Assembly: GCA_016931295.1 (NCBI GenBank)
Contig: JAFGEZ010000035.1
Coordinates: 26,998-90,997 of the forward strand
Source of the DNA: Candidatus Krumholzibacteriota bacterium
GTDB lineage: Bacteria; Krumholzibacteriota; Krumholzibacteriia; Krumholzibacteriales; Krumholzibacteriaceae
Direction: 5' to 3'
DNA: 64,000 nucleotides
Shown: positions 50,101 through 64,000 of the stretch, one piece after another
Position numbering within the stretch: the stretch's first letter is position 1
Layout of the letters: every line of letters begins with the position of its first letter
Program-made: the position numbers

Positions 50101-53100
50101 CGCAACGGCTTCCGGCGCCCCCGGCGCCCAGTTCGCGTCATTCGAGGGGATCGCGACGACCTTCGCGAGCCTCCAGTCCCTTTCCTCGGCCCTGTCGACG
50201 TCGACGTCGACCGGCGGCGGATTCAGCGGCGGCGGCGGCGGTGGTGGCGGCGGCGGCTGCAGCGGCGCCGGTTGACGGAGAGCGCATGATCGGACCGACC
50301 GGCATACTCGCGTTCGTCATCATCGCGGCGGCCTTGTGGGTCGCCATCGTGTACAACCGGTTCGTCGTCATGATGAACCGCGCGGAGAACGGAAGAACGC
50401 AGATCGACATCGAGCTGCGGCGGCGCCACGACCTCGTGCCGATGCTCGTCGACACGGTCCGCGGGTACGCGTCGCACGAACGCGCGGCCTTCGAGCGTGT
50501 GGCCGAGGCGCGGTCGTTCGTCTCGAAGGCGTCGTCCGCGGCGGGCCGCGCGGCCGCCGAGAACGCGCTCGGCGGAGCGATCGACTCGATGCTCCTTCTC
50601 GCCGAGGCGTATCCCGGACTGAAGGCGAACGACCGTTTCATCCGCCTCCAGGAGGAGCTCGCCGGCATGGAGGACCGGATCGGATTCTCGAGGATGTTCT
50701 ACAACGACGTCGTCATGAAGTACAATACGGCGCTCGACACCTTCCCCGAAATCATCGTCGCGCGCGCGTTCGGATTCGAGCCGGCGCCCTTCTTCGACCT
50801 CGAACGCGGAACCGGCCGACGGGAAAACGGGGCTCCTCCCGATTTGTTCAGGGAGTGAACCGGAAGTTTGCGTAGTTCGCGAGGAATTTCTTCGAGCCGT
50901 AGCCGACGAACCGGACGGTCAGTTTGAGATCCGCTCCGGCCCCCTCCACCTTCGTGATCGTGCCCTTGCCGTATGTGGGATGCCAGACGTCCCGCCCCTC
51001 CCGGTATCGCGACCGGGAGACCGCCGGCTCCCCGGGAGCCGGGGCCTCGGGCGCCGGCACCTCGTCGACGGCGCGGAAGAGATCTGCGGAATCGGCGGCG
51101 CCTCGCGACAACCCGGTGACACGGCAGAGCGACGCCGGTATCTCCCGAAGGAAGCGCGATGGCGCATTGTCGGTCCACGATCCGTACCGCATCCGGTTCG
51201 AGGCGGAAAAGAGGAAGAGCCGTTCCCTGGCCCGGGTCATCCCGACGTAGAAGAGCCGCCGCTCCTCCTCGAGCTCGTCGTCGTCGTCGCTGCTGGCGAA
51301 GTGCGGCAACAGCCCCTCGTCGAGCCCCGTAACGAGGATGGCGCGGTACTCGAGCCCCTTGGAGTTGTGCAGGGTCATCAAGGCCACCGTCTCCTCGCCC
51401 CGCAGCGCATCGACGTCGCTGAAGAGGGCGATCTCCTCGAGAAAGGCGGAAAGCGATTTGTTTTCCGACGCGTCCGCGAAACGGCGGGTCTCGACGCGGA
51501 GTTCGTCGACGTTCTCCTGGCGAATCTGCGCCGTCTTCGGATCCTCCATGAGATGGTCGATGTACCCCGATTCCTCGATGGCGGCGTCGAGCACGTCGTG
51601 AGCGGTTCCTCTCGCCGCGACGAGCCTGAGCTTCGCCATCAGGGCGGCGAAGATCGTCACGCGGTCGCGCTGTCCCCGCGGAAAGCGATCGAGGGTCTCC
51701 GGATCGGTGATCGTGTCGAGAAGACTCCGTCCCGCCGCCTCGCGCTCGATCCGATCCATCGTCACCTGCCCGATGCCGCGCCGCGGGACGTTCACGACCC
51801 GGCGGAAATTGACGTCGTCGTCCGGGTTCGCGACGAGCTTGAGATAGCCGAGGAGATCCTTGATCTCCTTCCGTTCGTAGAAACGGACGCCGCCGATGAT
51901 CTGGTAGGGCAGGCCGCCCCGGCGCAGGGCGTTCTCGATGGCGCGGGACTGCGCGTGGGTCCGGTAGAGAACGGCGATCTCGTCGCGACGGCAACCGCCG
52001 CGGATCAGCGAAAGGATCGTCTCGCGCACCGCGTACGCCTCCCCCTCCTCGTCGTCGTCGTAGCGGATCTCGACCGGCTCCCCCCTGCCGCATTTCGACC
52101 AGAGCGTCTTCCCCTTCCGCCCGGCGTTGTGCCGGATGACGGCGTTCGCCGCCTCGAGGATGCTGTTCGTCGAACGGTAATTCTCCTCGAGCCTGATCGT
52201 CGTGGTGTTCTCGTAGACCCGGTCGAACTGCAGGATATTGTCGATCGAGGCGCCTCGCCAGCCGTAGATGGCCTGGTCGTCGTCGCCGACGACGAAGAGG
52301 TTGCGGTGGAGCGAGGAGAGCTGGTCGATCATGACCATCTGGATGCGGTTCGTGTCCTGGAACTCGTCGACGAGGACGTACTTGAATTGCCTGGCGTACC
52401 GCTGGCGGACCTTCGGATGCGCGGTGAAGAGTTCGACGACCCTGACGATCAGGTCGTCGAAATCGAAGGCGTTGCAGGCCGCGAGCCCCGCGGCGTATCG
52501 CTCGTAGATACGTGCCTGGTTCTCCTCGATCGGGTCGCCGGCGGCCTCGAGCGCCGCCGCCGGCGTGACGAGGGCGTTCTTCCAGCTCGAGATGCGGCCG
52601 CGAAGGGAGGACGGCGGATACTCGTCGGTCTTGAGACCCTTCTTCTTCAGGACGGCCTTGATGAGGGAGATTGAATCGTCCTCGTCATAGATGGCGAAGC
52701 TGTTCCTGAATCCGATATGGTGCGCCTCCCGGCGCAGGATGCGGAGTCCCGTCGCGTGGAATGTCCCCACCCAGAATGGCAGGTCGCGCTTCAGCGTCCG
52801 TCCGACGCGTCCGCGCATCTCCCCCGCCGCCTTGTTGGTGAAGGTGAAGGCGAGGATGCGTTCTGGCGGAATGCGTTTCTCCCTGATCAGGAAGGCGATC
52901 CGCTCGGTGAGGACGCGCGTCTTCCCGCTTCCCGCCCCGGCGAGCACGAGCACGTATCCCTCGGTGGCAAGCACCGCCTCCCGCTGCCGCGGGTTGAGCT
53001 CGTCAAGCATGAGGATATCCCTTTTCCCTCCCGTGAAAGCCGATGACGGATCGATTGACGCCGTCAGAACTGCGGCCCCAGGTAGAAGTGGAAGACCGAC

Positions 53101-62100: not shown

Positions 62101-64000
62101 GCTTCTTGAGGGTCTCGTCGTCGAAGGACCGGTTGCCGAGTATGAGGATGCGCCGGACGGTGGGAAGCTCGATGCCGAAATCCGCGGCGCCGGTCTCGCC
62201 CGGTCCGCAGAGGAGCAGGATCGCCAGGACGAACTGGACGAGCCGTCGGGATGCGATGATACGGAGATGCATTGCGATTGACAACACCCGCGCGGAGATG
62301 TACCGTTGCATCCTGCCGCCGGCACAGGACAACGGCCCGGCGCGACCGCTCACCGGCCGGACCGGACGACGAGGTGATCCCGTGAACGTTCGAGCGTATC
62401 CCGCATGTCTCCCGCTTCTCATCCTGGCCTTCGCGGCCGTCGTGGTCTCGTGCCACGGCCCTGCAGAAGAGGACGCCTCGCCGACGCTCACGGAGGACGA
62501 ACGATATATCGTCCTTCTTTACATGAAGATAACCGAAATCGAAATGAATCTCCAAGACAATCCTGAGGAGCAGGGGAAAAAGTGGGACGAGCTGAGGACG
62601 GAGTTCGATCCCGCACGCATCCGCGCTGCCCTCGACGGGCTCGAGAAGGATCCCGCCCGCTGGGTCGCCGTCTACGAACGGATCTCCGAACTCACGCAAC
62701 GCCGGAGGGACCGGCGGCGCGAGATCGAGGTCGGCTCCTGACGCCGGCGGATTCCCGCCGGCTCGCTCACCTGCCGAAGAGATTGAAGATATCCATCACG
62801 AAGATGAACGCGATCAGGGCGATCAGGATGACGAAACCCACCTGCGCCATGACGTTCTGCACCCGCTGATTCATTCGCCGCCCCGTCGCGAACTCCACGG
62901 CGAAGATGACGAAATGCCCCCCGTCGAAGGGCAGGATCGGCAACATGTTGAAGATCGCCAGGTTCAGCGAGAAGAAGGCGATGAAATAGACGAGGTAGTC
63001 GAATCCCCACCGGATCATGTCGCCCGCCATGATGCCCACGCGCAGCGGCCCGCCGACCGTCCGCACGGTCGCGTGACCGGTGACGAGCTTCACGAGGAAA
63101 TCGACGATCGAGCGGAGCATCCCCGTGACCGACGCCATGCCGTGGCGGAAGGCGTCGGGGAAGGGCAGCCTGACCCGCTCGTACGGCGGCCCGATACCGA
63201 TCCCTCCCACCTTCACCACGTCGAGTTTCTCTCCCTCCGAGGCGGCATCGATCCCCGCCGGCACGATCGTGTCGGTGCGAACCACCCCGGCCTGTTCCCA
63301 CGTGAAGGCCATCGGCACGCCCGGGCGCGGGTGTATCCACTCCTCGAGTTCGGCGTAGGTCGTCACCGTCGTGTCGTTGATCGCGAGTATCGTCGCGCCG
63401 GCCCGCATCCCCGCCTTCCACGCCGGGGCATCCCGCTTGACGTTGCCGACCTTCGACGGCAGGGGGGCCCGGAGGCCGAGATCCCAGTACCCCGAGGAGT
63501 CGTCGAGGACGGGAGTCGCGGTGAGCGCCAGTTCATTTCCGCCGCGCCGGACGAGGAAGGAGGACGGAACGCCCGTCTCGAAGATCACGGAACGCTGGAT
63601 GTCGTCCCAGAAGCGGAAGGTCTCGCCGTTGACGGCGAGGATCTCGTCGCCCGGGAGGAATCCGGCCTCGGCCGCCGGCGACCCATCGACGACCGCCCCG
63701 ACGACCGTCGCGGGATTGACGTACAGGCCGTAGAACCAGCCCGCGAGGACGTAGATCAGGACGGCGAGCAGGGCGTTCATGAACGGCCCGGCGAGGACGA
63801 CGCTCATCTTCCCGAGAGGATGCTTGTGCCGGTAGAGCCGATGCTCGGGCAGATCGGGCACGCCATCCTCGGGCTCGCTCTCCTCGTCTGGATTCTCGCC
63901 GGCGAACTTGACGTATCCGCCGAAGGGGAGGGCCGAGATCGCGTATTCGGTCTCTCCGACGCGCTTTCGCAGCAGTTTGGGGCCGAATCCGAACGAGAAG

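What the first reader, a model, noticed from the sequence alone, without database searches (positions are those of the whole stretch)
53064..62311. Third gene of the tamA-tamB operon encodes an Omp85-type barrel whose periplasmic part is a metallopeptidase-like domain plus PD40 beta-propeller
tamA (POTRA plus barrel) and tamB are 10 nt apart. 109 nt further downstream, co-oriented, lies a 1104-aa secreted protein. Its N-terminal ~300 aa carry a Peptidase_MA_2-type HELIH...WFAEGISEF motif. The middle ~400 aa are TolB-like PD40 repeats (FSPDG x3). The last ~350 aa look like a 16-strand Omp85/BamA barrel, with an FSTGYGFG first strand, an FFLGGPLTMRGY loop-6 motif and a terminal Phe. I see no POTRA domain. 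The barrel is C-terminal to large soluble domains, so the layout resembles a type Vd-like self-exporting protein with a peptidase passenger. Alternatively it is an Omp85 paralog whose periplasmic arm is a TolB-like propeller working with TAM. I do not recognise this as a described family.
Basis: partly seen in the sequence, partly recalled or inferred. Interest (0 to 1): 0.78.

Follow-up and report, generated by a model that had tools for sequence, protein, structure and literature searches.

The report
Peptidase–propeller Omp85 protein beside bamA–tamB
What may be new is its tight, clade-specific linkage to tamB.

Summary
Three co-oriented minus-strand genes encode a 3-POTRA Omp85, TamB, and a 1104/1106-aa secreted protein, here called X.

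X has these parts:
- an intact gluzincin peptidase domain (HELIH...WFAEG);
- a six-bladed TolB-like PD40 propeller;
- a roughly 100-aa disordered linker;
- no POTRA domain.

- The family is already described. Heinz & Lithgow 2014 defined a "WD40-like Omp85" subfamily whose supplementary table lists BamA/TamA barrel, TolB propeller and aminopeptidase/collagenase hits. No experimental study of it turned up in four literature searches.
- The "tamA" gene sits at the canonical dxr–rseP–bamA locus and passes the NCBIfam BamA cut-off. The operon is better read as bamA(3 POTRA)–tamB–X–uvrD.
- The type Vd self-export analogy is weak, because the prototype PlpD passenger is now reported to be periplasmic.

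X is most likely an outer-membrane-anchored, periplasm-facing, propeller-gated zinc peptidase working in envelope biogenesis or quality control.

Immediate tamB→X adjacency holds in 75 of 88 fetched loci (L001 and L004 are one place). These are mostly Krumholzibacteriota and Latescibacterota. Several other lineages lack it.

Verdict: new member of a known but uncharacterised kind; moderate interest.

The parts
53064..56384 (-). Gene X: a 1106-aa ORF, with the probable start at the second ATG (56378), giving 1104 aa. It is a WD40-like Omp85 family protein.
56298..56384 (-). Signal peptide (about residues 1-29). It is followed directly by the near-invariant mature N-terminal motif F34-G-K-N-K-V-Q-Y.
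   Evidence: Sequence. The FGxNK positions are conserved in 78-85 of 85 divergent members. AF2 pLDDT is below 50 at residues 22-35.
55497..56297 (-). Gluzincin (Peptidase_MA_2) domain, residues 30-296. The predicted zinc site is H145, E146, H149 (55938-55952) and E179 (55848-55850).
   Evidence: Pfam PF13485 gives 37.8 bits on the domain alone and matches 26 of 26 family members. H145, E146, H149 and E179 are each kept in 84 of 85 divergent members. A PDB profile search gives weak hits to collagenase ColT (E 0.008) and to M1 aminopeptidases.
54585..55496 (-). Six-bladed TolB-like PD40 beta-propeller, residues 297-600.
54267..54584 (-). Acidic, Pro-rich disordered linker, residues about 601-706. 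Its length and sequence vary among homologues.
   Evidence: pLDDT is about 30 over residues 609-706. The alignment columns here are gappy and unconserved.
54141..54266 (-). Conserved pre-barrel segment, residues 707-748 (EDSxExIxPDxLxAIR...GTVxPY). It models as a helix at 725-738 plus a short strand. It is not a POTRA domain.
   Evidence: no POTRA hit in Pfam at E<1
53067..54140 (-). Omp85-type beta-barrel, residues 749-1106. It carries loop-6 FFLGGPLTMRGY (RGY at 53415-53423), the FxDxG motif at 1033-1037 (53274-53288) and a C-terminal Phe.
56488..60345 (-). tamB (1285 aa as listed, GTG start), with the C-terminal DUF490/TamB domain at residues 933-1285.
   Evidence: Pfam TamB 3.1e-37. It lies immediately upstream of X in 75 related loci.
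60356..62272 (-). BamA/TamA-type Omp85 with 3 POTRA domains (638 aa from the probable start MHLRII at 62272; the listed ORF runs up to 62491). It has an ordinary signal peptide and is not a lipoprotein.
   Evidence: Pfam POTRA x3 plus Omp85 3e-51. NCBIfam BamA gives 324 bits against a cut-off of 297. No Cys is conserved in the N-termini of orthologues. Start coordinate.
62767..63861 (-). rseP (Peptidase_M50 plus PDZ) upstream. This marks the canonical bamA locus.
50848..53010 (-). uvrD/pcrA helicase gene, 53 nt downstream of X and co-oriented. The same neighbour is found in relatives.
   Evidence: Pfam UvrD-helicase 1e-87. Frame set by codon-position GC. ATG at 53010. Synteny.

Best explanation
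X belongs to the WD40-like Omp85 subfamily. The Sec system exports it and its C-terminal 16-strand Omp85 barrel is inserted in the outer membrane. The N-terminal module stays on the periplasmic side, tethered by a flexible linker of about 100 residues. That module is an active HExxH...E zinc peptidase packed against a six-bladed TolB-like propeller.

The propeller probably acts as a substrate filter or docking platform, as propellers do in tricorn and S9 peptidases. The enzyme would then cleave unfolded or stalled envelope proteins near the outer membrane. In this lineage it is co-expressed with the BamA-type insertase and with TamB. Its likely role is therefore outer-membrane biogenesis or quality control, functionally comparable to BepA at the BAM complex.

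Shown here: gene integrity, domain identities, an intact and strongly conserved catalytic motif, the Omp85 fold and motifs, absence of POTRA, and conserved synteny.
Inferred: periplasmic orientation, proteolytic activity, propeller gating, and any functional or physical link to BamA or TamB.
For: Architecture:
- Pfam and NCBIfam hits.
- AF2 full-length model with pLDDT 81.6 and pTM 0.80: a peptidase plus 6-blade propeller at pLDDT above 90, a disordered linker, and loop 6 lying between strands 11 and 12 as in BamA.

Selection on the active site: H145, E146, H149 and E179 are each kept in 84 of 85 divergent full-length members, and W176, G180 and E183 in 85 of 85. HExxH is present in 78 of 80 distant representatives.

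Family size: 1224 cluster representatives match the barrel at E<=1e-3.

Linkage:
- The order rseP-Omp85(POTRA)-tamB-X is kept in about 45 loci that have enough flanking DNA.
- The tamB C-terminus lies directly upstream of X in 75 loci, with gaps of -41 to +180 nt.
- The order also holds in members only 34-36% identical, where tamB and X overlap by 4 nt or lie 14 nt apart.

Orientation: in characterised Omp85 proteins the N-terminal POTRA domains are periplasmic, and the PlpD passenger is reported periplasmic (PMC11116518). X keeps the loop-6 RGY and FxDxG motifs that occlude the lumen in other Omp85 barrels (their role is established knowledge of BamA and FhaC).

Precedent for a zinc peptidase doing quality control at BAM: BepA (PMC8423444, PMC13478230; abstracts).
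Against: - No experiment exists for any family member.
- I could not inspect model coordinates, so which side of the barrel the N-terminal module occupies in the model is unknown.
- tamB linkage is clade-specific. It is absent in a Gemmatimonadota locus, a Fibrobacter locus and three other distant members. The core function of the family therefore cannot depend on TamB.
- uvrD is also a conserved co-oriented neighbour, so synteny alone may reflect a frozen gene order rather than shared function.
- The peptidase domain scores only marginally above the Pfam cut-off for this sequence (34.1 against 32.4 bits), and its PDB relatives are weak (E 0.008 and worse).
- AF2 did not model the last two barrel strands.
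Confidence: 0.55

Rival explanations
1. X is the outer-membrane docking partner of TamB, or a second one. In this reading it is a POTRA-less Omp85 whose barrel seam engages the beta-strands of the TamB C-terminal DUF490 domain, taking a TamA/TamL-like role. The peptidase-propeller would be an accessory module.
For: - tamB to X adjacency is nearly universal in the clade, with short gaps or overlaps.
- In two Latescibacterota chromosomes (L038, L080) X is preceded by a 535-539-aa ORF that holds only the TamB C-terminal domain (Pfam TamB 6.8e-40), with no bamA nearby.
- AF2 gives low confidence to strand 1 (residues 757-768) and leaves out the last 30 residues, although both are highly conserved. 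That would fit a seam completed by a partner.
Against: - A POTRA-bearing Omp85 already lies directly upstream of tamB, and TamB is known to bind POTRA domains (PMC11361582 title; Heinz 2015, PMC4494059).
- Many family members are not next to tamB.
- The short TamB ORF in L038 has no signal sequence or anchor, so it may be a truncation or an assembly artefact.
- The poorly modelled seam may only reflect shallow alignments (116 and 21 sequences).
Confidence: 0.2
2. X is a type Vd-like autotransporter. The Omp85 barrel exports the N-terminal peptidase-propeller to the cell surface, where it degrades external proteins for nutrition or for surface remodelling.
For: - The layout is a passenger N-terminal to an Omp85 barrel, joined by a long flexible linker.
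- The related M9 collagenase and BSP families are extracellular enzymes.
- Heinz & Lithgow raised surface export as a possibility, though for a different subfamily, the Omp85 "Metallo" group, by analogy with PlpD.
Against: - X has no POTRA, which type Vd proteins have.
- The PlpD patatin domain is reported to be periplasmic, and FplA was not detected on the surface (PMC11116518).
- A folded module of about 570 residues containing a beta-propeller would have to pass a barrel whose lumen-closing loop-6 and FxDxG motifs are conserved.
- The operon partners are envelope-biogenesis genes.
Confidence: 0.1
3. X is a general periplasmic or outer-membrane housekeeping peptidase, for example in peptide turnover or lipoprotein or peptidoglycan-linked protein processing. 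It would have no specific relation to BamA or TamB, and the linkage would be inherited gene order.
For: - Outside the Krumholzibacteriota/Latescibacterota-related clade the gene sits in unrelated contexts: M3 peptidase and epimerase, OmpA and TPR proteins, adenylosuccinate lyase, EPSP synthase.
- uvrD and gatCAB are equally syntenic neighbours.
Against: - The order is kept down to 34-36% identity, with overlapping or near-abutting tamB and X reading frames that suggest co-translation.
- Anchoring the enzyme through an Omp85 barrel, rather than a lipid anchor, points to a role at the outer membrane.
Confidence: 0.15

Closest known systems
WD40-like (WD40-Omp85) subfamily of the Omp85/TpsB superfamily (Heinz & Lithgow 2014, Front Microbiol 5:370; PMC4104836)
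   Same: It has the same three modules in the same order. Their Table S3 lists BamA/TamA barrel hits (4K3B/4C00, confidence about 100), TolB propeller hits (2W8B/2IVZ) and a "best aminopeptidase hit" (1Z5H, 4KXD, 3QNF, or collagenases 4AR1/4AR9). No POTRA is listed. Members are about 930-1125 aa. I obtained the same domain relatives independently.
   Different: The 2014 set came from cultured or UniProt genomes such as Rhodothermus, Salinibacter, Caldithrix, Gemmatimonas, Ignavibacterium, Anaeromyxobacter, Geobacter and Vibrio. This sequence is from an uncultured Krumholzibacteriota-like lineage. The main text of the 2014 paper stresses the propeller (a "BamA-BamB fusion"), not the peptidase. 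Neither the parts of that paper I read nor term searches of the 2015 TAM paper (operon, synteny, WD40, downstream of tamB) mention a tamB linkage.
PlpD/FplA patatin-like Omp85 proteins ("type Vd")
   Same: An enzyme domain is fused N-terminally to a 16-strand Omp85 barrel. The current evidence places that enzyme in the periplasm (PMC11116518).
   Different: PlpD has one POTRA and a patatin lipase. X has no POTRA, a metallopeptidase plus a propeller, and a long disordered linker.
BepA (M48 zinc metallopeptidase with TPR domain) at the BAM complex
   Same: It is a periplasmic HExxH zinc peptidase joined to a protein-interaction domain, and it acts on stalled outer-membrane proteins at BamA (PMC8423444, PMC13478230). 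The proposed working logic for X is the same.
   Different: The peptidase family differs: M48 against the Peptidase_MA_2/M9/M1-like gluzincins. BepA is soluble and uses a TPR domain rather than a propeller, and it has no barrel of its own. The resemblance is functional only, not homology of architecture.
BamA-TamB, TamA-TamB and TamL-TamB operons (Heinz et al. 2015, PMC4494059; Borrelia BamA-TamB, PMC5582053)
   Same: A POTRA-bearing Omp85 gene lies immediately upstream of tamB. bamA-tamB operons are already known from phyla that lack TamA.
   Different: Here a second, POTRA-less Omp85 gene follows tamB. The upstream Omp85 has 3 POTRA domains like TamA or TamL, but it is not a lipoprotein and it sits at the rseP-bamA locus.
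TolB; propeller-gated peptidases (tricorn protease, S9 family)
   Different: X lacks the N-terminal TolA-binding domain of TolB and scores 133 bits against a cut-off of 343 on the TolB equivalog model. Its catalytic domain is a gluzincin, not a serine peptidase.

Membership tests
Omp85 superfamily (PF01103-type barrel) | [quoted passage not shown] | tested here: met
Omp85 superfamily (PF01103-type barrel) | Loop 6 between strands 11 and 12 carrying the (V/I)RG(F/Y) motif, and the (F/G)xDxG motif on strand 13 | tested here: met
   R988-G989-Y990 lie in the loop between modelled strands 11 and 12. F1033-x-D1035-x-G1037 is also present. Across 85 divergent members these residues are kept in 83, 82, 83, 83 and 77.
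Omp85 superfamily (PF01103-type barrel) | Significant match to the Pfam Omp85 model | tested here: inconclusive
   The window protein gives no PF01103 hit at E<1, only NCBIfam Omp85_fam at 3.4e-6, below its cut-off. Many homologues carry a precomputed PF01103 hit. The Gemmatimonadota homologue scores 3.6e-20, above the cut-off.
WD40-like Omp85 subfamily (Heinz & Lithgow 2014) | TolB-like WD40/PD40 propeller N-terminal to the Omp85 barrel, with no POTRA | tested here: met
   PD40 1e-22 and TolB 1e-20 by sequence, 8e-30 by profile. Six blades in the model. No POTRA hit; only a helix and a short strand precede the barrel.
WD40-like Omp85 subfamily (Heinz & Lithgow 2014) | M1 aminopeptidase-like or collagenase-like gluzincin domain at the N-terminus (the Table S3 column "best aminopeptidase hit") | tested here: met
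   Peptidase_MA_2 matches 26 of 26 members, Peptidase_M9 9 of 26 and BSP 10 of 26. The PDB profile search hits ColT 4ar8 at 0.008 and M1 aminopeptidases 3cia and 4fgm at 0.11-0.37. These are the same structural relatives as in their table.
Gluzincin metallopeptidases (clan MA(E)) | HExxH zinc-binding/catalytic motif plus a downstream Glu as third ligand | tested here: met
   H145-E146-L-I-H149 and E179 within WFAEG. These are invariant in the 116-sequence alignment and kept in 84 of 85 divergent members.
Gluzincin metallopeptidases (clan MA(E)) | Zinc-dependent peptidase activity | not testable with these tools
   This needs purified protein or genetics.
Type Vd autotransporters (PlpD/FplA) | Single POTRA domain between the passenger and the 16-strand barrel | tested here: not met
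   No POTRA in Pfam at E<1. The 150 residues between propeller and barrel are about 100 disordered residues plus a helix and a short strand.
Type Vd autotransporters (PlpD/FplA) | Passenger exported to the cell surface or released | not testable with these tools
   This feature is now disputed even for the prototype (PMC11116518).
TamA (for the upstream gene 60356..62272) | Three POTRA domains plus an Omp85 barrel, encoded directly upstream of tamB | tested here: met
   Pfam POTRA x3 plus Omp85, and a 10-nt gap to tamB.
TamA (for the upstream gene 60356..62272) | Scores as TamA rather than BamA, and exists in addition to a separate BamA | tested here: not met
   NCBIfam TamA gives 108.6 bits (cut-off 625), while BamA TIGR03303 gives 324.4 bits (cut-off 297). 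The gene lies at the dxr-rseP-bamA locus. Whether a second BamA exists elsewhere in the genome could not be tested.
TamL (Bacteroidota/Chlorobi TamA-like lipoprotein) | N-terminal lipobox Cys | tested here: not met
   The N-termini of 46 orthologues show ordinary signal peptides with no conserved Cys. NCBIfam TamL gives 131 bits against a cut-off of 400.
TolB (Tol-Pal system) | N-terminal TolA-binding alpha/beta domain plus propeller, scoring above the equivalog cut-off | tested here: not met
   TIGR02800 gives 132.7 bits against a cut-off of 343. Only the propeller part of TolB aligns, roughly TolB residues 170-430.

The most novel reading that the evidence does not exclude
In Krumholzibacteriota, Latescibacterota and related lineages, bamA(3 POTRA)-tamB-X would encode one envelope machine. 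The POTRA-less Omp85 barrel of X would be a dedicated outer-membrane terminus or co-receptor for the TamB bridge, with its weakly closed seam engaging the TamB DUF490 strands. Its tethered propeller-gated zinc peptidase would proofread or process cargo arriving at the outer membrane. That would give the first function for the WD40-like Omp85 subfamily and a third kind of Omp85 partner for TamB, after TamA/TamL and BamA.
Probability: 0.15. Interest if true: 0.7.

Novelty: new member of a known kind. Interest (0 to 1): 0.35.

Why it matters
The WD40-like Omp85 proteins are one of several conserved Omp85 subfamilies with no known function. This work shows three things about them:
- The family is large: 1224 cluster representatives at 50% identity match the barrel.
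- Its zinc-peptidase site is under strong purifying selection.
- In one group of FCB-related phyla the gene is locked directly behind bamA-tamB.

Together these give a concrete, testable hypothesis. The protein would be a membrane-anchored periplasmic protease working with the outer-membrane assembly and lipid-bridge machinery. For genome annotation, such proteins should not be labelled "TolB", "Tol biopolymer transport component" or simply "PD40 domain-containing protein".

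Tried and rejected
- Frameshift or two-gene artefact: rejected, because homologues are collinear and full length and codon-position GC is uniform.
- TonB-dependent receptor or porin fold for the C-terminus: rejected, because every top fold hit is an Omp85-family barrel.
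- Hidden POTRA domain: not found.
- TamL lipoprotein identity for the upstream Omp85: rejected, no conserved Cys.
- Promoter or terminator in the tamB-X gap: the scan found neither. The one promoter-like hit overlaps the probable bamA start and is not informative.
- Full-length model against the PDB with Foldseek: only propeller hits were listed, so a separate barrel model was needed.
- Fold search against afdb50: the library was unavailable.
- Model coordinates are not exposed, so domain packing and which side of the barrel the N-terminal module occupies could not be read.
- Literature searches for an experimental study of the subfamily found none.
- Look-ups for P0160 and P0143 were uninformative or ambiguous because the contigs are short.

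Full report
**1. What is in the sequence**

Three co-oriented minus-strand ORFs fill the region: 60356..62491, 56488..60345 and 53064..56384.
- The first two are 10 nt apart.
- The third follows after 103 nt counted from its first ATG, or 109 nt from its second ATG (56378).
- A GAAGAGGG run abuts the first ATG and lies about 6 nt before the second, so the 1104-aa reading is the more likely.
- Codon-position GC is gene-like in all three: about 0.6 / 0.44 / 0.87.

Pfam gives these results:
- gene 1: POTRA x3 plus Omp85 (3e-51);
- gene 2: TamB (3e-37);
- gene 3: Peptidase_MA_2 (34.1 bits, cut-off 32.4) and PD40 (1e-22).

One caveat applies. The window protein itself gives no Pfam Omp85 hit, only a sub-threshold NCBIfam Omp85_fam match.

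**2. The C-terminal domain is an Omp85 barrel**

An AF2 model of the whole protein, built on 116 sequences, reached pLDDT 81.6 and pTM 0.80.
- It shows a helical peptidase domain and a 24-strand (six-blade) propeller, both at pLDDT above 90.
- The linker at residues 609-706 is disordered, with pLDDT about 30.
- A conserved helix at 725-738 precedes a barrel with 14 confidently placed strands.
- The FFLGGPLTMRGY loop sits between strands 11 and 12, which is the position of loop 6 in BamA.

Fold searches agree:
- Foldseek of a barrel-only model returned only BamA and Toc75 chains in the top 50.
- A profile of the family hits Fusobacterium BamA (9ccg) at 7.6e-7.

Both signature Omp85 motifs are kept in 77-83 of 85 divergent members. 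These are RG(Y/F) on loop 6 and FxDxG on the following strand pair.

No POTRA exists between propeller and barrel.

Both AF2 runs leave the last 30 residues unmodelled and give low confidence to residues 757-768, although these segments are among the most conserved. I record this as unexplained.

**3. The peptidase is probably active**

- H145, E146, H149 and E179 are invariant in the close family.
- Each is kept in 84 of 85 members whose barrels are only 30-50% identical to this one. W176, G180, E183 and R127 are kept in 85 of 85.
- Among 80 distant full-length representatives, 78 have HExxH at residues 122-181.
- The domain matches Peptidase_MA_2 in 26 of 26 members, with weaker links to BSP, M9 collagenase and M61.
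- It gives weak PDB profile hits to collagenase ColT (E 0.008) and M1 aminopeptidases.
- The mature N-terminus starts with a near-invariant FGKNKVQY motif of unknown role.

**4. The family is already described**

Heinz & Lithgow (2014, PMC4104836) split the Omp85/TpsB superfamily into ten subfamilies, one of them "WD40-like" or "WD40-Omp85".
- Their Table S3 lists about 100 UniProt members.
- For these it gives Phyre2 hits to BamA/TamA barrels, to TolB, and a "best aminopeptidase hit" (1Z5H, 4KXD, 3QNF, or collagenases 4AR1/4AR9).
- That is the same tripartite architecture.
- They suggested a "BamA-BamB fusion"-like role.

Later papers refer to the subfamily:
- "divergent WD40 and peptidase domains" (PMC11358297);
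- "not well characterized" (PMC11116518).

I found no experimental study of it.

My own survey with the barrel domain found 1224 representatives of 50%-identity clusters at E<=1e-3 and 614 at E<=1e-10. Most full-length ones are 925-1174 aa with the barrel at the C-terminus.

**5. Genomic context**

Upstream of the POTRA-Omp85 gene lies rseP. Downstream of X lies uvrD/pcrA, starting 53 nt after the X stop codon.

In a 63%-identical relative on a 4.1-Mb chromosome the order is uppS-cdsA-dxr-rseP-(114-aa ORF)-POTRA/Omp85-tamB-X-uvrD-gatCAB.
- The "tamA" therefore occupies the canonical bamA position.
- It passes the NCBIfam BamA equivalog cut-off (324 against 297 bits) and fails the TamA and TamL models.
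- Its orthologues have ordinary signal peptides without a lipobox Cys.
- bamA-tamB operons are known from phyla without TamA (PMC4494059; PMC5582053).
- Whether another BamA exists in this genome could not be tested.

**6. How conserved is the link to tamB**

Among 80 genomic loci found with the family profile:
- every Krumholzibacteriota or Latescibacterota locus with enough flanking DNA keeps rseP-Omp85-tamB-X;
- loci labelled Eisenbacteria, Chitinivibrionia and UBP1 also show tamB directly upstream of X.

Counting all 88 fetched loci, 75 have the tamB C-terminus directly upstream of X, with gaps of -41 to +180 nt. L001 and L004 are the same place.

More distant members, 32-39% identical in the barrel:
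- Three keep the linkage: P0133 with a 4-nt overlap, P0138 with a 14-nt gap, and P0165.
- Five do not: a Gemmatimonadota locus, a Fibrobacter locus, and P0145, P0175 and P0209.
- P0143 shows no tamB in the short DNA upstream of it, but that contig is too short to decide.

The linkage is therefore clade-specific, not family-wide.

In two Latescibacterota chromosomes X is preceded by a 535-539-aa ORF consisting only of the TamB C-terminal domain, with no bamA nearby. That ORF has no signal sequence or membrane anchor, so it may be a truncation.

**7. Mechanism**

Best reading (confidence about 0.55): X is an outer-membrane-anchored, periplasm-facing, propeller-gated zinc peptidase. It would act on unfolded or stalled envelope proteins and is co-expressed with BamA and TamB.

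The periplasmic orientation is inferred from three points:
- the N-terminal domains of all characterised Omp85 proteins are periplasmic;
- the PlpD passenger is periplasmic, which undercuts the type Vd model (PMC11116518);
- the lumen-closing loop-6 and FxDxG motifs are conserved.

The functional analogy is BepA, a periplasmic zinc peptidase that binds BAM for outer-membrane protein quality control (PMC8423444, PMC13478230).

Rival readings:
- X is a TamB docking partner (0.2);
- X is a surface-exposed type Vd-like passenger system (0.1);
- X is a housekeeping peptidase whose linkage is only inherited gene order (0.15).

**8. Verdict**

The claim of an undescribed family is wrong, the "tamA" label is doubtful, and the self-export analogy is weak.

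The result is a new member, from an uncultured FCB-related lineage, of a known but functionally uncharacterised Omp85 subfamily. The conserved bamA-tamB-X arrangement and the strong conservation of the catalytic site are useful leads of moderate interest.

Noticed in passing
window 50848-53010 (-): A uvrD/pcrA helicase gene lies 53 nt downstream of X. In the ORF list it is hidden inside a 1177-aa ORF (50848..54381) that overlaps X out of frame. The same X-uvrD neighbourhood occurs in relatives L001 and L085.
   Followed up: yes
window 60356-62491 (-): The listed ORF of the POTRA-Omp85 gene starts about 73 codons too far upstream. Orthologues share 'LSIxM...', which places the start at 62272 (MHLRII, 638 aa). 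The only sigma-70-like hit (62284..62256) overlaps that start codon and is not informative.
   Followed up: partly
window 56270-56294 (-), residues 31-38 of X: The mature N-terminus carries a near-invariant FGKNKVQY motif (78-85 of 85 divergent members), yet AF2 places it with low confidence. It could be a docking strand or a latency segment.
   Followed up: partly
window 53067-53156 and 54081-54116 (-), residues 1077-1106 and 757-768 of X: Two independent AF2 runs fail to model the last two barrel strands and give low confidence to the first-strand region, although both are highly conserved. The cause could be an unusual or partner-dependent barrel seam, or a limit of the alignments.
   Followed up: partly
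L038:8244-9863 (CP070677.1) and L080:8225-9832 (CP070631.1): In two Latescibacterota chromosomes the X homologue is preceded by a 535-539-aa ORF that is only the TamB C-terminal (DUF490) domain. It has no signal sequence or anchor and no bamA lies nearby. In L080 the X homologue also appears split into ORFs of 470 and 303 aa.
   Followed up: partly
window 48329-50275 (+) and 50241-50858 (+): A DUF2207 membrane-protein gene and a LemA-family gene overlap by 35 nt on the plus strand, convergent with uvrD.
   Followed up: no
window 46372-48498 (-): An Amidase-family ORF (7e-153, probably gatA) has its domain starting only at residue 245 of the listed ORF, so the true start is likely internal. gatC-gatA-gatB follow uvrD in relative L001.
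   Followed up: no
L002 (DATKWS010000052.1): The second-closest relative overall and the closest one in the genome collection (66% identity, full rseP-Omp85-tamB-X synteny) is titled 'Patescibacteria group bacterium'. That label is implausible for a locus encoding BamA, TamB and Omp85 outer-membrane proteins and is probably a mislabelled MAG.
   Followed up: no
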